Assembly (NCBI RefSeq): GCF_056712565.1
Contig: NZ_CM160072.1
Length of the DNA stretch: 64,000 nt
Strand: one strand, 5' to 3'
In this document: positions 31,071 to 50,850 of the stretch, in pieces
How positions within the stretch are numbered: the stretch's first letter is position 1
Layout: every line of letters begins with the position of its first letter
Position numbers and translations under genes: made by a program
Notes under the pieces: model-generated
The model's input: the letters and a program-made list of their open reading frames with translations, nothing else
Told to the model about the DNA's origin: nothing
Databases searched by the model: none

Positions 31071-31409
31071 TTATTCGCAAAGTGCTGTTGCGGCATCCAT
31101 TACAGGATCCAAAGGAATTTTTACACCTGCATACTCTGGACTGTCTTTCCAAACAGCATCAATATTGCTCCCCTCAAGCTTTCCAGACTTTACTCCATCA
31201 ATAGCAAAACCATTTAATGGGTATCGGTCATCAGTTGCTTTGTCGTATACAAAGGCATACTTACCGTTAACGCAAGACACCGTAGCTTTTTCAAAAGTTA
31301 ACGGCCAATCCTCACCAAACTTAGCGCCATCTAAATCCTGTGTTTTTTCAGCGGCTAAGGAGCCAAAAGAAAAGGTAAGAAGCATAGCTAAAAAGAGTTT
31401 ACGTTTCAT
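31071..31409 (-). CDS. small secreted protein of unknown function (cargo gene between int and repressor)
   Basis: Start at MKRKLFLAMLLTFSFGSLAA (signal peptide); two Cys in mature part; overlaps the repressor gene's 3' end by ~10 bp. Confidence 0.6.
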   Translation of the reverse strand: MKRKLFLAMLLTFSFGSLAAEKTQDLDGAKFGEDWPLTFEKATVSCVNGKYAFVYDKATDDRYPLNGFAIDGVKSGKLEGSNIDAVWKDSPEYAGVKIPLDPVMDAATALCE

Positions 31410-37576: not shown

Positions 37577-38518
37577 TTAATTTATTTTTAATGAATGGTA
37601 ATCTCGTGAGTTGACCGAAGATTTGAGATAACTGCAATCATTAACCGACAGTATTGCCGCTAATAGGCGACATACCAGTGCCTGCATTTGCAGCAATATA
37701 TCGTTACCATATTGACTGTTGTTAACACTTGAGAAACCAAGCGGTTGACCAAAAAAAATAGCCTCATGAAAATTATCATTGCGGATGCCAGAAATGTTTT
37801 TTTTACCTGACACCCATGTGGGGATTGATAACCCATAAATTTTGCACATCCACTTTAATCGCTTGTAATGATTTGGCGGTTTTTTATCAGGAGCCTTGTC
37901 ATGCTCAGCCCACGACAAAGCAAAGCACCCATCAAGTGCCATGTAAAGATACTGGAATTTTTCAAAAGAAAGGTATTGTGGGTTTTGAGATAAGAATAGT
38001 GCATGCACCACTGCCGCAATTCTTTTGGGGGAGTGCGCATCCTTATGTTTGCCATTTATATAATTAAGAGCCAGTTCTATGACTTCTTTTTCAGAGCATC
38101 CAACGAGAATAAAGTCGGTTAACTTAGTGGGCTTGATAGTGGTTGCATCTAAAAAACCAGCGTCAGTGGTTGTCAATCTTATTCCCTTGAAAAAAGAAAG
38201 GCACCACACAATAAAGTTGAGAGTTTCTAACGAGGATGTATTTTTTAATTTTAGTGTGTGCGTTTTGGGCATACTGAATACTCGGTGACTATAAGGCATT
38301 GTGGATATGCCACCATTAAGGTTATATACATCTTGGTTTCCAGGGTATATCCAACCTTTCACAACGTTTTTATCATTATTAACACGCTCCACTTTCTCAT
38401 TGAGACCAGGTAAAGTAAGCAAAGAAAATTGTTCAGTCTCAATGTTAACTTCTACTGGATAGTATCCAAACTCCGACATAATCTCATTGGGTTGCTGTTC
38501 GTCAACTTCACCTTGCAT
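37577..38518 (-). CDS. hypothetical 313-aa protein at the cos-proximal old/tin position
   Basis: Long AT-rich ORF; GGAG RBS; 16-bp perfect palindrome CTCGATAATTATCGAG at 38541-38556 upstream; no motif recognised. Confidence 0.7.
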   Translation of the reverse strand: MQGEVDEQQPNEIMSEFGYYPVEVNIETEQFSLLTLPGLNEKVERVNNDKNVVKGWIYPGNQDVYNLNGGISTMPYSHRVFSMPKTHTLKLKNTSSLETLNFIVWCLSFFKGIRLTTTDAGFLDATTIKPTKLTDFILVGCSEKEVIELALNYINGKHKDAHSPKRIAAVVHALFLSQNPQYLSFEKFQYLYMALDGCFALSWAEHDKAPDKKPPNHYKRLKWMCKIYGLSIPTWVSGKKNISGIRNDNFHEAIFFGQPLGFSSVNNSQYGNDILLQMQALVCRLLAAILSVNDCSYLKSSVNSRDYHSLKIN

Positions 38519-38993: not shown

Positions 38994-39998
38994 CTAATTT
39001 ACATGTATGTAGAGTTCACCGTCGCCAGACCAATCGGGACACTCTAAAACAAGCCCAAACTGCTTGAATATTTCATCAATGATTATTGTTATCTCCCGAA
39101 AATCACCAAAACCTGTAATGTGCTGGTCATTAAACTTCCCATAAAGATTCTGAAAAGCAATGCCTAATTCTGATAATTGATATCTTATCTTTGAGTTGGA
39201 TAGTGTAAGGGATAGCTTTGGATCGTATTCTTTAATATTGATGTTTAGAGAATGGACATAACCCATCGCATAAGCATAAGAGTTGATGATTAGCCTGATA
39301 CGTTTTTTTACTTCGAGATACATGTCATTCAGAGAAATATTACCGTACTTATAACCCCAGATGAGTTTTTCAATCTCGTCAGATACTTCATTTACAACAG
39401 TGTCAAGATTCTCTAAAAATAAATCGATAGTTTCTTGAGGGGCAGACCCCGAAGACATGTAATTAGCGAGATATTCAGACCATGCACGCGTGGCTGAGAT
39501 AAGAAGCGCGCTACCATACTCGTTGACTGTAAAGTTTTGGGCTAAGCATGTTAGTAAGTTTTTTTCATGTACGTGCACTAATTCATGGTGAATGCGATGG
39601 ATGACTGCGAGGTATCCTTCTTCTTTCAGTTTTAAGAAGCTACCATCATTGAAAAGCTCAACAAAAAAATCAATCGATAGCACAAGGGTATATTCTTCAC
39701 ATAGCCCATCATTGCCAATTTTTGTTACTAACTGCCCGACGGCTGCGCCCTGTTTACTATTGGTAAATGAACTAGGGGATTTGTGTTGGTAAGAGGATGT
39801 TACCTTTTGAAGAGCTTCACTGAAGTTATAGGAAACAATCACGCATTTTAATTTGGAGATATCAAGATTGAGATTTTTTGTTAAAGCTCGGATAGCTTCT
39901 AGTGTGAAATTACCGATATTATTTGCTTCTTGCTCAGTAGCGAAACCTTCGAGGGTTATTTTAAAATCAGTTTCCAAAATATTAATCTCCGCGCCCAT
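38994..39998 (-). CDS. hypothetical 334-aa protein with HExxH zinc-metallopeptidase-like motif (cargo between cos and portal)
   Basis: AT-rich ORF; motif VIHRIHHELVHVHEKN; own sigma70-like promoter upstream. Confidence 0.7.
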   Translation of the reverse strand: MGAEINILETDFKITLEGFATEQEANNIGNFTLEAIRALTKNLNLDISKLKCVIVSYNFSEALQKVTSSYQHKSPSSFTNSKQGAAVGQLVTKIGNDGLCEEYTLVLSIDFFVELFNDGSFLKLKEEGYLAVIHRIHHELVHVHEKNLLTCLAQNFTVNEYGSALLISATRAWSEYLANYMSSGSAPQETIDLFLENLDTVVNEVSDEIEKLIWGYKYGNISLNDMYLEVKKRIRLIINSYAYAMGYVHSLNINIKEYDPKLSLTLSNSKIRYQLSELGIAFQNLYGKFNDQHITGFGDFREITIIIDEIFKQFGLVLECPDWSGDGELYIHVN

Positions 39999-47956: not shown

Positions 47957-48386
47957 CGCCGTGCCGCAGCTCCGAAATAATCCCGATATGCTGCGCCTTT
48001 TTGCCGACAACGGCCATACCGATTCCCGACTGGCGAGCTCGCTGTCGTTTGAAAAGGTGTACGTGCTTAACGTGGTGGTGACTGACTTCACCGGTGACCT
48101 TGATTTGATATTCGTGCCGGTGCAGGCGTGGCTGCGTGAACATCAGCCGGACATTATGACCACCGACGACGGGCGGGAAAAAGGATTCACCTGGATTATT
48201 GATATCAATAACGACGATTCGCTCGATATCAGTATCAGCCTGAGGCTCACCGAGCGCACACTCGTCAAAGAGGTCGACGGCGCGCTGCACGTCAGCTATG
48301 CCCCTGAGCCGCCACTGCCTGAGCCGGTGACGCGCCCGGTCGAGCTGTACGTTAACGGCGAACTGGTGAGTAAGTGGGATGAGTGA
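47910..48386 (+). CDS. tail completion protein (gpR family)
   Basis: 158 aa; position. Confidence 0.75.
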   Translation: MNSMQKHKSLRKALINAVPQLRNNPDMLRLFADNGHTDSRLASSLSFEKVYVLNVVVTDFTGDLDLIFVPVQAWLREHQPDIMTTDDGREKGFTWIIDINNDDSLDISISLRLTERTLVKEVDGALHVSYAPEPPLPEPVTRPVELYVNGELVSKWDE

Positions 48387-48825
48387 ATTAACCGCGCTGC
48401 AGGAACGCCTTGCCGGTCTGATTGCCAGCCTGTCACCGGCGGCACGTCGGCAAATGGCGGCTGAGATTGCGAAAAAGCTGCGTACCAGTCAGCAACAGCG
48501 TATCAAGCGCCAGCAGGCACCCGACGGCACCCCGTATGCGGCACGAAAGCGCCAGCCGGTGCGGAGCAAGAAAGGTCGGATTAAACGTGAAATGTTCGCC
48601 AAACTGCGCACCAGTCGCTTTATGAAAGCCAAAGGCAGCGACAGTGCGGCGGTGGTGGAGTTTACCGGCAAGGTGCAGCGCATGGCGCGGGTTCATCAGT
48701 ACGGCCTCAAAGACCGGCCAAACCGTAACAGCCGGGATGTGCAGTACGAGGCGCGCCCGTTGCTCGGTTTCAATAGTATAGATATGAGAATTATTGAGCG
48801 GTTAATAATTGGGGCTTTGGATTAA
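48379..48825 (+). CDS. tail completion protein (gpS family); 3' end runs into AT-rich cargo
   Basis: 148 aa; last ~15 codons (NSIDMRIIERLIIGALD) are AT-rich unlike the rest. Confidence 0.75.
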   Translation: MSELTALQERLAGLIASLSPAARRQMAAEIAKKLRTSQQQRIKRQQAPDGTPYAARKRQPVRSKKGRIKREMFAKLRTSRFMKAKGSDSAAVVEFTGKVQRMARVHQYGLKDRPNRNSRDVQYEARPLLGFNSIDMRIIERLIIGALD

Positions 48826-48854
48826 TTATGATCTAATATATTATTTTGTGATGA

Positions 48855-48875
48855 GGCTGGATAAACACCAGCCTT
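48855..48875. terminator. hairpin at the S / cargo boundary
   Basis: AGGCTGG-ATAAACA-CCAGCCT followed by TTGATTTT. Confidence 0.5.
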
Positions 48876-48879
48876 GATT

Positions 48880-49524
48880 TTATAGTTTGAAATCTGCGTA
48901 ATTATCAATAACCTCTAGAACACCGCTGATGTTGTTATCTCTGCGCCAATTCCAATTGCCATGTATCAAATTTGCATTAGAATAAAGATATCTAAGGAAC
49001 TGAGATGGTAAGAGTGGTTTGTTGCATAAAAATTCATCATAACTATTACTCATATACCACACATATCCATTTTTAATGTCAAAACTTAAATTCTCACCTT
49101 CAATTTTCTTAAAGTTAATTTCTTTATTTAGAGCATTTTCAAACTCTTGTGTATAATAAACACAGTGTATATGAGCGTGAGAAATGCACCCTCCTGAACG
49201 ATCTATATTTTCACCTGCTCCGCTTTCAAAGAAAATTAGAGATCTACCAGATTGGTGGATTATAAATTCATTAAGTTCTCGCAGAATCTCCTTGCCATTA
49301 CTCCGGGTATCTCGATCAAGAGCAGCAAAGGAGTTGATATGCCGCTTAGGAATCAGCATCACATGCGAATTATTTAGCGGGCCAATACTAGGTACAATTA
49401 GAAAATCATTTGTTTCTGCAATGATATTTTTCTTGTCATTTACGATTTCATCGTATCCTTTGATAAGGCTAATGCCATTTATTTCATCGCATATTCCACA
49501 GAACGAATTACAAGAATTATTCAC
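48880..49524 (-). CDS. HIT (histidine triad)-motif protein, cargo gene
   Basis: 214 aa; HIT signature SHAHIHCVY and upstream HVMLIPKRHI; N-terminal CxxC (CNSFCGIC); AT-rich. Confidence 0.75.
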   Translation of the reverse strand: MNNSCNSFCGICDEINGISLIKGYDEIVNDKKNIIAETNDFLIVPSIGPLNNSHVMLIPKRHINSFAALDRDTRSNGKEILRELNEFIIHQSGRSLIFFESGAGENIDRSGGCISHAHIHCVYYTQEFENALNKEINFKKIEGENLSFDIKNGYVWYMSNSYDEFLCNKPLLPSQFLRYLYSNANLIHGNWNWRRDNNISGVLEVIDNYADFKL

Positions 49525-50089
49525 GTTTATTGTCTCCTGGTTTTTTAGGGAGCAATTTTTCAGCCCAAGATGCGAGTCGGCTTAGAACTAAGTCTGAAAA
49601 ATATCCTAATATAAAACAAATCGAGAATGCAATTTTGGTCTTACCATGCCCTTTAATGGAGGATACAAACGTATCCGGAGATAATATCGTATAAGAACAA
49701 AAAGCCACTAAAGCAGCTAAGAACGGAATAAAAATCCTCCAGTAGAACTTATGGGATTCCCAAGGGAAATTATACTGATTGTTTTTCCCTCTAGCAGTTA
49801 CTCTATAAAACCATTTTGCATTATACACCCACCCTCCAAAAAAACCACCAAGAATAGAAAACAAAGATATTTTATTATTATATGACAGCTCAAAAACAAA
49901 TTGAAAAAGAAAGGCGAGAATGCAACCTATTACAAAAAGAACTATTAAATAAGCAAATTCGAATTTTATTTGTTCACAATCGTTATTAAAATAAGGCACA
50001 ACCTCATCATCGCCTAAGGTTTTTTTTCTTTCAGTCATTTGCCAAACACCTTCATTTTTTACTGTGAGCCAGGGTAATTGCATATTCAA
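49517..50089 (-). CDS. small membrane protein (~4 TM helices), cargo gene upstream of HIT gene
   Basis: 190 aa; hydrophobic segments AYLIVLFVIGCILAFLFQFVF, ISLFSILGGFFGGWVY, FYWRIFIPFLAALVAFCSY, IAFSICFILGYF; 8-bp overlap with HIT gene; start codon uncertain. Confidence 0.65.
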   Translation of the reverse strand: MNMQLPWLTVKNEGVWQMTERKKTLGDDEVVPYFNNDCEQIKFEFAYLIVLFVIGCILAFLFQFVFELSYNNKISLFSILGGFFGGWVYNAKWFYRVTARGKNNQYNFPWESHKFYWRIFIPFLAALVAFCSYTILSPDTFVSSIKGHGKTKIAFSICFILGYFSDLVLSRLASWAEKLLPKKPGDNKRE

Positions 50090-50214
50090 CTTGGCTATTC
50101 TAATTAATTCTCACAAGATTTCATAGATGTTGAGTAGACCTCTCAGAAGTTGTTTCATTCCTCACAGAATCCATCTCGATTGCCACTAATCTTGCCGGGC
50201 GTCATCCTTCCCAT

Positions 50215-50850
50215 ATGAAAAATCTAAATTCTTTGCAAGAAATCGCACGCGCGATCCGAAATCTCATCCGTACCGGCATCGTTAGCGACGTAGACCTCAA
50301 GGAGGGGCTATGTCGTATCCAGACCGGGGGGATGCAAACCACTTGGCTGAACTGGCTGACCACCCGAGCCGGTCGTTCGCGGACGTGGTGGGCTCCCTCG
50401 GTCGGTGAGCAGGTTCTGCTGCTGGCAATCGGTGGCGAGCTTGATACCGCTTTCGTGCTGCCGGGTATTTTCTCCGACGATAACCCCGCCCCGTCTGCCT
50501 CGGCGGATGCGTGGCATGTGGCTTTCCCTGATGGTGCGGTCATTGAGTACGAGCCCGAAACCGGCGCGCTGACGGTCAGCGGCATAAAAACGGCCGACGT
50601 GACGGCATCGGAGTCCATCACCGCAACCGTACCGCTGGTACTGGTGAAAGCCTCGACCAGTATCACCCTCGACACCCCGGAGGTGATTTGCACCAATAAG
50701 CTAACGACGGCGACGCTTGAGGTGCAGAAAGGCGGCAAGATGAGCGGCAATCTCGAACATACCGGCGGGTCACTGTCGTCTAATGGCAAGGTACTCCACA
50801 CCCATAAACACCCGGGCGACAGCGGCGGGCAAACGGGGGCACCGTTATGA
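50215..50850 (+). CDS. baseplate spike (gpV family)
   Basis: 211 aa; position. Confidence 0.8.
   Translation: MKNLNSLQEIARAIRNLIRTGIVSDVDLKEGLCRIQTGGMQTTWLNWLTTRAGRSRTWWAPSVGEQVLLLAIGGELDTAFVLPGIFSDDNPAPSASADAWHVAFPDGAVIEYEPETGALTVSGIKTADVTASESITATVPLVLVKASTSITLDTPEVICTNKLTTATLEVQKGGKMSGNLEHTGGSLSSNGKVLHTHKHPGDSGGQTGAPL

What the first reader, a model, noticed from the sequence alone, without database searches (positions are those of the whole stretch)
48775..50214. AT-rich two-gene cargo (4-TM membrane protein + HIT-motif protein) inserted between tail genes S and V
The late region is otherwise tightly packed and GC-rich, but a ~1.4-kb AT-rich block sits between S and V. It carries two overlapping minus-strand genes, opposite to the surrounding late operon. 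The upstream one is a ~190-aa protein with four hydrophobic helices. The downstream one is a 214-aa protein with a clear histidine-triad signature (HVMLIPKRHI ... SHAHIHCVY) and an N-terminal CxxC. The last codons of S are themselves AT-rich, suggesting the insert replaced the native S 3' end. I do not know of a described anti-phage or lysogenic-conversion system with this composition. A nucleotide hydrolase/transferase paired with a membrane protein would fit an abortive-infection or nucleotide-signal module.
Basis: partly seen in the sequence, partly recalled or inferred. Interest (0 to 1): 0.85.

Follow-up and report, generated by a model that had tools for sequence, protein, structure and literature searches.

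The report
Prophage cargo: membrane protein plus HIT enzyme
A 186-like prophage of E. coli carries, at a known variable spot between two tail-gene operons, a mobile two-gene cassette (a small four-helix membrane protein and an intact HIT-type nucleotide enzyme) that recurs in the accessory-gene hotspots of several prophage types and is most likely an undescribed anti-phage system, although no function has been tested.

Summary
Window 48773-~50150 is 34% GC between flanks of 56-57% GC. It carries two translationally coupled minus-strand genes: a 173-aa four-helix membrane protein (49517-50038) and a 214-aa HIT protein (48880-49524). The last 17 codons of S belong to the AT-rich block.

The membrane gene sits directly upstream of the HIT gene in every locus where upstream DNA was available. 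These loci include four different prophage accessory positions, a site next to a filamentous prophage and a site next to Wadjet-like genes. A remote branch has the order HIT, membrane protein, ~830-aa MazG-like protein.

The S-V junction is the known P2 "orf30" site. In 77 related phage contigs, 40 junctions are empty and 37 hold at least 25 unrelated AT-rich cargo families, some matching defence models.

Neither protein matches PADLOC 2.0, and I found no paper describing the pair.

Best reading (confidence 0.5): an undescribed prophage defence or exclusion cassette. The mechanism is inferred.

The parts
48379..48825 (+). Tail completion gene S (186 gene O homologue). Codons from 48773 to the stop are part of the AT-rich cassette.
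   Evidence: RefSeq calls it a phage virion morphogenesis protein. DNA identity to 186 gene O ends at 48772. The last 54 nt are 31% GC, against 46-56% in phages with an empty junction.
48852..48876 (+). GC-rich hairpin followed by ATTTTAT, lying between the convergent S and HIT genes. It is terminator-like for the S operon and possibly bidirectional.
   Evidence: Terminator scan: 9-pair stem with 5 G-C pairs. This is a pattern match only.
48880..49524 (-). CwfJ/CWF19-type HIT protein, 214 aa. It has C9/C12, H54, H62 and the triad H116-A-H118-I-H120, plus a C-terminal extension (GYVWY...PLLPSQFLRYLY...WNWRR).
49533..49538 (-). AGGAGA ribosome-binding site 8 nt upstream of the HIT GTG start, inside the end of the membrane-protein gene. 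It suggests translational coupling.
   Evidence: Read from the sequence. The 8-nt gene overlap recurs in Pseudomonas, Halomonas, Enterobacter and Pantoea loci.
49517..50038 (-). Four-helix inner-membrane protein, 173 aa, of an uncharacterised family. Motifs are GGWVYxAKWFYRVTARGK, HKFYWR and LGYFSDLVLSRLAxWAE. The most conserved segment is the basic loop 79-101, predicted to be cytoplasmic.
   Evidence: Homologue alignments. AF2 model with 4 helices. Loop charge and conservation. No Pfam family. Fold searches return only generic or uncharacterised matches.
50097..50124 (-). Weak sigma-70-like promoter (ATGAAA, 16 nt, TAGAAT) upstream of the membrane-protein gene. The -10 region is conserved in the Enterobacter copy.
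   Evidence: Promoter scan, 9 of 12 matches, no better than shuffled sequence gives. Conservation of GGCTATTCTAATTAATT in L008. Function not shown.
50151..50166 (+). TGT-N10-ACA element upstream of V. It aligns without gaps to the stretch upstream of 186 orf32 and is a candidate late-promoter activator site, marking the right edge of the cargo.
   Evidence: Alignment with the 186 O-orf32 intergenic region. The late-promoter identity comes from my own knowledge of P2/186 late promoters and was not tested.
50215..50850 (+). Baseplate assembly gene V, the first gene of the next late operon.
   Evidence: RefSeq annotation. 80.6% amino-acid identity to 186 orf32.

Best explanation
The block is a mobile two-gene accessory cassette sitting in the S-V ('orf30') variable spot of a 186-like prophage. 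I think it is probably expressed from its own promoter in the lysogen, and that it most likely protects the lysogen against other phages.

Proposed mechanism (inferred, not shown). The cytoplasmic CwfJ-type HIT enzyme has an intact triad, with H118 as the likely nucleophile. It binds or turns over a nucleotide-linked molecule whose level changes on infection. Candidates are a dinucleoside polyphosphate, an adenylylated or capped nucleic-acid end, or a branched or ADP-ribose-derived signal. The enzyme is coupled to the 4-helix inner-membrane protein through that protein's conserved basic cytoplasmic loop. When triggered, the membrane protein compromises the membrane or blocks entry, which stops phage growth.

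Shown: the anatomy, the fold, conservation of the catalytic residues, strict gene pairing, mobility, and location in hotspots. Inferred: expression, physical coupling of the two proteins, the trigger, the membrane effect, and any anti-phage phenotype.
For: (1) Strict pairing. The membrane gene lies directly upstream of the HIT gene in every locus with upstream DNA, from E. coli to Burkholderia, often with an 8-nt overlap. In a remote branch the order is reversed (HIT then membrane protein) but the linkage is kept.

(2) Mobility into accessory hotspots. The pair is found at S-V in E. coli and Enterobacter. It lies between gpA/DinI and the portal gene in Pantoea P2-like phages, which is the validated P2 defence hotspot of PMC9122126. 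It lies next to the S24 repressor in Pseudomonas-type prophages. It lies just beyond the tail-fibre genes of a Proteus lambdoid prophage. It lies beside a filamentous prophage in Vibrio and beside Wadjet-like genes in Halomonas. In the five other viral contigs measured it is 40-42% GC in 54-58% GC contigs.

(3) The S-V site behaves like a defence hotspot. Of 77 related contigs, 37 carry cargo from at least 25 unrelated families. These include RT_UG17+SLATT (DRT), PDC-S31 and PDC-S59 matches.

(4) The enzyme looks active. H54, H62, H116, H118 and H120 are invariant in 49 homologues.

(5) The most conserved part of the membrane protein is a basic loop predicted to face the cytoplasm.

(6) The remote three-gene branch adds a protein that JGI names MazG-superfamily NTP pyrophosphatase, which points to nucleotide chemistry.

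(7) The cassette is rare and patchy: 7 of 5426 E. coli genomes.
Against: There is no experimental phenotype. No PADLOC 2.0 model matches either protein. The PHROG families that match are of unknown function. Two of the roughly nine contexts (Pseudomonas sp. 9AZ and Burkholderia contaminans) show no obvious phage or defence neighbours. The membrane protein has no recognisable pore, channel or ligand-binding domain. The promoter match is weak and no better than shuffled sequence. From my own knowledge, such AT-rich DNA may be silenced by H-NS in E. coli. Guilt by association in prophage hotspots also fits toxin-antitoxin modules, exclusion proteins or other morons. I could not run newer DefenseFinder models, so the pair may already have a name.
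Confidence: 0.5

Rival explanations
1. Toxin-antitoxin or addiction module. The 4-helix membrane protein is a membrane-damaging toxin, and the HIT protein neutralises it or keeps it inactive. The cassette mainly stabilises the mobile elements that carry it. Any anti-phage effect would be secondary.
For: The operon is tight and translationally coupled. The pair always travels together on mobile elements. It is small and AT-rich. In L115 it lies next to a PIN/RHH toxin-antitoxin pair.
Against: The full catalytic HIT triad plus a 90-residue extension are invariant. That is more than a simple binding antitoxin would need. One Pseudomonas contig has an intact membrane gene with a 1-nt indel in the HIT gene, which would be lethal if HIT were an essential antitoxin; this could be an assembly error. 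Gene order differs between branches.
Confidence: 0.15
2. Non-suicidal superinfection exclusion at the membrane. The 4-helix protein anchors or positions the HIT enzyme at the inner membrane. There it acts directly on entering phage DNA ends or on an entry factor, for example by removing or transferring a nucleotidyl group, or the membrane protein simply blocks DNA injection. The host cell is not killed.
For: The cassette is encoded by prophages in several phage types. The conserved cytoplasmic loop could serve as a docking site. The closest structural relatives, CWF19 proteins, are components of intron-lariat spliceosome structures, which are nucleic-acid complexes (PDB titles). Aprataxin, a HIT enzyme bound to RNA-DNA and AMP in its structure, is also among the matches.
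Against: Chromosomal copies outside prophages and next to Wadjet-like genes fit a general defence module as well. There is no evidence of nucleic-acid binding. The remote branch with a MazG-like partner suggests small-nucleotide chemistry rather than action on DNA ends.
Confidence: 0.15
3. Counter-defence or a function that benefits the phage. The HIT enzyme degrades a host immune nucleotide signal or alarmone so that the prophage or its relatives can replicate. The membrane protein plays an accessory role.
For: From my own knowledge, HIT enzymes hydrolyse nucleotide conjugates and phages use other hydrolases to destroy immune signals. The cassette is carried by phages.
Against: The cassette is transcribed opposite to the late operons and has its own promoter-like sequence. 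An obligate membrane partner is atypical for known signal-degrading enzymes. The pair also occurs on chromosomes away from prophages. No related protein was found in 50,697 deposited phage records by tblastn at E up to 1e-3.
Confidence: 0.07
4. Accessory metabolic or envelope function with no role in conflict. An example would be a membrane-associated HIT-type pyrophosphatase or transferase acting on a lipid- or sugar-linked nucleotide.
Confidence: 0.08

Closest known systems
Eukaryotic CWF19/CwfJ C-terminal module (CWF19L1, CWF19L2, S. pombe Cwf19)
   Different: In C. elegans CWF19L2 the triad is degenerate (PHVFIECV, against SHAHIHCV here). The eukaryotic proteins are 300-900 aa spliceosome components with extra N-terminal regions. 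The bacterial protein is a stand-alone 214 aa, is paired with a membrane protein, and is carried by prophages. Pfam CwfJ_C_2 was not detected by sequence.
Canonical HIT hydrolases and transferases (Hint, Fhit, Ap4A phosphorylase, aprataxin, DcpS, GalT)
   Different: Similarity is much lower than to CWF19. There is an extra conserved 90-residue C-terminal extension. The motifs FFESGAG and HSGGC are distinctive. No NCBIfam equivalog comes near its cut-off. The substrate is unknown.
P2 'orf30' region and the other P2 variable regions (tin/old, Z/fun)
   Same: The position between S and V is the same. It is listed as one of three loci of P2-like phages where foreign genes are found (PMC3091744). 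The cargo is AT-rich and varies between relatives. The same cassette also occurs in the gpA-portal hotspot studied in PMC9122126.
   Different: The cargo is unrelated to the known P2 exclusion genes old, tin and fun. It has two genes, not one. This cargo has not been described at the site in the papers I could search.
Defence systems that pair a nucleotide enzyme with a small membrane effector (Panoptes; CBASS or Pycsar with membrane effectors; RT_UG17 + SLATT)
   Same: The architecture is two genes, a soluble nucleotide-handling enzyme plus a small multi-pass membrane protein, carried on mobile elements. An RT_UG17+SLATT pair occupies the same S-V junction in a sister phage. Panoptes (PMC12657218, PMC12657230) shows that an enzyme product can hold a membrane effector in check.
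   Different: The enzyme here is a HIT fold, not a cyclase, CD-NTase, mCpol or reverse transcriptase. The membrane protein matches no SLATT, S_4TM or other Pfam family. No PADLOC model matches. Signalling is hypothetical.
Thoeris with an extra HIT gene (ThsC, 'Thoeris type II' in the PADLOC 2021 paper)
   Same: It is the only association between a HIT domain and a defence system that I found in the searchable literature (PMC8565338).
   Different: The window protein hits no PADLOC model, even at E up to 1. No TIR or ThsA/ThsB genes lie nearby.

Membership tests
HIT superfamily | HIT alpha+beta fold | tested here: met
HIT superfamily | Histidine triad H-x-H-x-H-x-x with hydrophobic x positions | tested here: met
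   H116-A-H118-I-H120-C-V. All three His are invariant in 49 homologues.
HIT superfamily | Nucleotide hydrolase or transferase activity through a covalent His-NMP intermediate | not testable with these tools
   This needs purified protein and a substrate panel.
CwfJ / CWF19-like C-terminal module | Match to Pfam CwfJ_C_1 (PF04677) | tested here: met
   E 2.3e-6, 27.9 bits, covering model positions 24-115 of 122. It is the best Pfam family. Many homologues carry PF04677 in precomputed annotation.
CwfJ / CWF19-like C-terminal module | Second C-terminal domain (Pfam CwfJ_C_2) following the HIT-like core | tested here: inconclusive
CwfJ / CWF19-like C-terminal module | Eukaryotic spliceosome-associated protein with N-terminal extension | tested here: not met
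   This is a bacterial or phage stand-alone 214-aa protein. It resembles the fold but is not an orthologue.
Known or candidate defence systems in PADLOC-DB 2.0.0 | Match of either protein to a system model | tested here: not met
   Zero families at E up to 1 for both proteins. The same holds for the remote-branch proteins. Newer DefenseFinder or PADLOC releases could not be run.
P2-like S-V ('orf30') variable-region cargo | Lies between S and V, is absent from close relatives, and has foreign composition | tested here: met
   Phage 186 has 69 bp at this junction. Of 77 related contigs, 40 are empty and 37 carry diverse AT-rich cargo. The cassette is 34% GC against 56-57% in the flanks.
Anti-phage defence system (functional class) | Reduces phage infection when expressed | not testable with these tools
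   The evidence is context only: hotspots, a Wadjet-like neighbour, and defence cargo at the same site.
Nucleotide-signalling systems with membrane effectors (CBASS, Pycsar, Panoptes) | Cyclase, CD-NTase or mCpol signal synthase | tested here: not met
   No such domain appears in either protein or in the flanking genes.
Type II-like toxin-antitoxin module | One product is toxic and the adjacent product neutralises it | not testable with these tools
   Only the tight two-gene arrangement is seen.

The most novel reading that the evidence does not exclude
The 4-helix membrane protein plus CwfJ-type HIT enzyme is the core of a previously undescribed, widely transferred family of bacterial anti-phage systems. 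It would exist in at least two architectures: the two-gene prophage form seen here, and a three-gene form with a ~830-aa MazG-like protein. In this reading a catalytically intact prokaryotic relative of the eukaryotic CWF19 fold senses or processes a nucleotide-linked molecule and controls a new kind of membrane effector. That would add the HIT fold to the enzymology of bacterial immunity, and it would suggest a prokaryotic conflict-system origin for the CWF19 module of the spliceosome.
Probability: 0.35. Interest if true: 0.8.

Novelty: new variant of a known kind. Interest (0 to 1): 0.62.

Why it matters
If the cassette protects against phages, it would be a defence system built on a HIT-fold enzyme. 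That fold has so far been linked to bacterial immunity only as an occasional extra Thoeris gene. It would also involve an uncharacterised membrane-protein family with about 350 clusters among 1.84 billion representative proteins.

The cassette is small (1.2 kb) and self-contained. It is easy to clone and to mutate at three obvious histidines, so the hypothesis can be tested directly.

The work also shows that the S-V junction of P2/186-like phages carries many unannotated cargo families, so it is a practical place to look for further systems.

The structural link to CWF19 proteins raises an evolutionary question about the origin of that eukaryotic module.

Tried and rejected
- PADLOC scans of both proteins, of the remote-branch proteins and of the other hotspot genes in this prophage found nothing.
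- NCBIfam gave only far-sub-threshold hits.
- PHROGs matched only unknown-function families, phrog_23000 and phrog_22917.
- megablast and tblastn against 50,697 deposited phage records found only the S flank and no relative of the HIT protein.
- An apparent HIT-membrane fusion protein (P0323, 412 aa) looked at first like evidence that the two proteins interact. Its contig, L025, carries HIT fragments in three reading frames. I therefore rejected the fusion as a frameshift or assembly artefact and kept only the gene adjacency.
- Thoeris ThsC membership is rejected because no PADLOC model matches.
- I thought the ~830-aa protein of the remote branch resembled the PPDK_N/ATP-grasp N-terminus by eye. 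Pfam does not support this. Only a weak MazG-like hit and JGI's MazG name remain.
- Literature searches found no description of the pair. Terms used were histidine triad, CwfJ and HIT-like together with defence terms, plus the two RefSeq accessions. I also searched the text of DefensePredictor and Millman 2022 and the supplements of PMC9122126 and the 2026 P2/P4 survey.
- The 1-nt indel in HIT in L112 cannot be told apart from an assembly error.
Full report
**1. What is in the sequence**

Between the tail-completion gene S (48379-48825, +) and the baseplate gene V (50215-50850, +) lies a block whose GC content drops to 30-37% in 300-nt windows. Both flanks are 55-63% GC. Over 48773-50150 the block is 33.7% GC, and the flanking late regions are 56.7% and 56.2%.

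The block holds two minus-strand ORFs. The first is a 214-aa protein (48880-49524) with CGIC at residues 9-12, HVMLIPKRH and SHAHIHCVY. The second is listed from a TTG at 50089 (190 aa). Its homologues and RefSeq start it at the ATG at 50038, giving 173 aa.

The genes overlap by 8 nt, and an AGGAGA lies 8 nt before the HIT start codon. The same 8-nt overlap recurs in Pseudomonas, Halomonas, Enterobacter and Pantoea copies. This suggests translational coupling.

A GC-rich hairpin (48852-48876) sits between the convergent S and HIT genes. A weak sigma-70-like promoter (50124-50097, minus strand) lies upstream of the membrane gene. Its -10 region is conserved in the Enterobacter copy. Both features are pattern matches only.

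The window is identical in the pieces tested to E. coli O2:K1:H7 APEC E18055. There the region is a 186-like prophage next to rplS, trmD and ffh. Only 7 of 5426 complete E. coli genomes carry the cargo.

**2. The junctions**

DNA identity to phage 186 gene O stops at window 48772. The last 17 codons of S are AT-rich but encode a related tail: NSIDMRIIERLIIGALD here, against TRDDEQMIEDVIIxHLGK in the 186 type.

On the right, the sequence upstream of V aligns without gaps to the 69-bp O-orf32 spacer of 186. The aligned stretch includes a TGT-N10-ACA element at 50151-50166.

From my own knowledge of P2 and 186, S ends one late operon and V starts the next (promoter P_V in P2, p32 in 186). The cargo therefore sits between transcription units, not inside one.

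**3. The site is a known variable spot, and it is richly used**

The position corresponds to orf30 of P2. It is listed with the tin/old and Z/fun regions as a place where P2-like phages carry foreign genes (PMC3091744). A 2026 survey reports a P2 defence hotspot downstream of GpL, holding 16% of P2 defence systems, and mentions hotspots within the late genes.

I fetched 80 IMG/VR contigs that encode relatives of V. Of the 77 that have both S and V, 40 have an empty junction of 69-71 bp. The other 37 carry 0.8-3.0 kb of 32-41% GC cargo, from at least 25 unrelated gene families. Only one contig has the HIT pair.

PADLOC recognises some of this cargo. One contig has RT_UG17 plus SLATT (a DRT system), one matches PDC-S31, one matches PDC-S59, and one has a weak match to an Argonaute-associated nuclease domain.

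Most cargo-bearing phages also have an AT-rich, cargo-specific S tail (24-44% GC in the last 54 nt). Phages with empty junctions have 46-56% GC there.

**4. The HIT protein**

Pfam gives CwfJ_C_1 (2e-6), DcpS_C (5e-6) and HIT (2.5e-4). A profile built from 49 homologues hits solved HIT proteins at 1e-5. The AlphaFold model is confident, with pLDDT 91 and pTM 0.89.

In C. elegans CWF19L2 the triad is degenerate: PHVFIECV aligns to SHAHIHCV. In the bacterial family H54, H62, H116, H118 and H120 are invariant. So are C113, part of the FFESGAG motif (F99, E100, G102, G104), P170, P173, Q175, F176, R178, Y181 and W191-N192-W193-R194. C9 and C12 are nearly invariant. I infer that this is an active nucleotide hydrolase or transferase. 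Its substrate is unknown.

**5. The membrane protein**

It matches no Pfam, NCBIfam or PADLOC family. The model (pLDDT 81) has four long helices. Fold searches return only generic helix bundles or uncharacterised proteins.

It is more conserved than its partner: 53-55% identity from E. coli to Burkholderia, against 42-46% for HIT. The most conserved segment is loop 79-101 (RVTARGKxNQYxFxWxxHKFYWR). Its mean column identity is 0.82, and it averages 5.4 Lys+Arg against 1.1 Asp+Glu. By the positive-inside rule this loop and both termini face the cytoplasm, where the HIT enzyme is.

A profile search of 1.84 billion representative proteins found 352 related clusters, of which 21 score below 1e-30. 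Remote members keep the motifs GGxxFxxKWLYHxVAKG, WR, P and GYFSD.

**6. The pair is a unit, and it is mobile**

In every fetched locus where upstream DNA was available, the membrane gene lies directly upstream of the HIT gene. The contexts are:

- **S-V junction, E. coli and Enterobacter sp. FB.** The Enterobacter copy sits in a degraded P2-like prophage that also has an AAA_21/AAA_15 ATPase and a faint HNH_5 match nearby.
- **gpA/DinI to portal interval, Pantoea P2-like phages.** This is the experimentally explored P2 defence hotspot of PMC9122126.
- **Pseudomonas-type prophages.** The pair lies between the integrase/excisionase side and the S24 repressor.
- **Proteus mirabilis lambdoid prophage.** The pair lies just beyond the tail-fibre genes.
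- **Vibrio.** The pair lies beside a filamentous prophage and an ADP-ribosyltransferase-like gene.
- **Halomonas.** The pair lies beside Wadjet-like genes: DUF3584, MksE and DUF7281.
- **Pseudomonas sp. 9AZ and Burkholderia contaminans.** These are chromosomal sites with no obvious mobile or defence neighbours.

In the five other viral contigs measured, the pair is 40-42% GC in 54-58% GC contigs.

A remote branch keeps the linkage with reversed order and adds a third gene: HIT (about 225 aa), membrane protein (about 195-212 aa), then a protein of about 815-841 aa. JGI names that third protein MazG-superfamily NTP pyrophosphatase. This branch was seen in three independent loci, one of them at 67-68% GC.

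**7. Comparison with what is known**

Neither protein hits any PADLOC 2.0 model. The matching PHROG families are of unknown function. No relative of the HIT protein was found in 50,697 deposited phage records.

I found no paper that describes the pair. The only HIT-defence link in the searchable library is the extra ThsC gene of some Thoeris loci (PMC8565338). The protein does not match those models.

In architecture the cassette resembles defence systems that pair a nucleotide enzyme with a small membrane effector. Examples are Panoptes (PMC12657218, PMC12657230), CBASS or Pycsar with membrane effectors, and RT_UG17+SLATT. It is not a member of any of them, because their defining enzymes are absent.

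**8. Interpretation**

Best reading (confidence 0.5): a prophage-borne defence or exclusion cassette. In it an active CwfJ-type HIT enzyme is coupled to a 4-helix inner-membrane effector through the effector's conserved cytoplasmic loop.

The anatomy, fold, conservation, pairing, mobility and hotspot location are shown by the analyses above. Expression, physical coupling, the trigger and the phenotype are inferred.

The rivals are:

- a toxin-antitoxin or addiction module (0.15);
- non-suicidal exclusion at the membrane (0.15);
- counter-defence (0.07);
- a metabolic or envelope function with no role in conflict (0.08).

**9. Verdict**

The site itself is already known as a variable region.

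The cassette appears undescribed in the resources I could search. I rate it a new variant of a known kind (prophage hotspot cargo with an enzyme plus membrane-effector layout), with interest 0.62.

Noticed in passing
S genes of L029-L108 (for example L072, L078, L086, L107); window 48773-48825: In most cargo-bearing P2/186-like contigs the last ~17-20 codons of S are AT-rich (24-44% GC) and specific to the cargo, while still keeping the LLGF...IE..II..L pattern. Phages with an empty junction have 46-56% GC there. Each cassette seems to bring its own S C-terminus.
   Followed up: partly
window 37577-38518 (-) and 38994-39998 (-): The same prophage carries two further AT-rich genes (38% GC; 313 and 334 aa) in the canonical gpA-to-portal P2 defence hotspot. 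They have no PADLOC hit and no Pfam hit at E<=0.001. This looks like a second unannotated candidate cargo.
   Followed up: partly
L026 5317-9107; L115 8663-12448; L025 582-3133: A remote branch of the family has three genes in the order HIT, 4-helix membrane protein, ~815-841-aa protein. Two homologues of the third protein are named MazG-superfamily NTP pyrophosphatase by JGI. In L115 the trio is followed by a PIN/RHH toxin-antitoxin pair, and in L026 it lies near an IS110 transposase and an SNF2 helicase.
   Followed up: partly
S-V junction cargo: L104 3548-4870, L098 1050-2162, L095 3580-4923, L085 4186-4923, L030 4027-4908: Many cargo genes at this junction have no PADLOC match but look defence-like by eye; I did not test this. 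L104 has a repeat-rich protein ending in a TTLGFGD potassium-channel-like motif. L098 has a P-loop GTPase with a hydrophobic tail. L095 has a 447-aa protein with an N-terminal YQVFVSSTYTDL motif. L085 has an HNH-like CxxC...H protein. L030 has a membrane protein with a repeat-rich C-terminal half and a weak SLATT match.
   Followed up: partly
L112 4594-5215: One Pseudomonas prophage contig (a Logan assembly) has a single-base indel that splits the HIT gene while the membrane gene stays intact. It is 99.9% identical to an intact copy. If real, this argues against HIT being an essential antitoxin. It may be an assembly error.
   Followed up: partly
L003 751-8633: In Halomonas meridiana the pair lies directly after a four-gene Wadjet-like cluster (DUF3584, MksE/JetB, an unannotated gene, DUF7281). 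About 1 kb downstream there is a metallo-beta-lactamase-fold gene that carries the Anti-Pycsar_Apyc1 Pfam label.
   Followed up: no
window 31071-31409 (-): A DUF2511 gene sits between the prophage integrase and the CI repressor gene. This is another accessory position in the prophage. It has no PADLOC hit.
   Followed up: no
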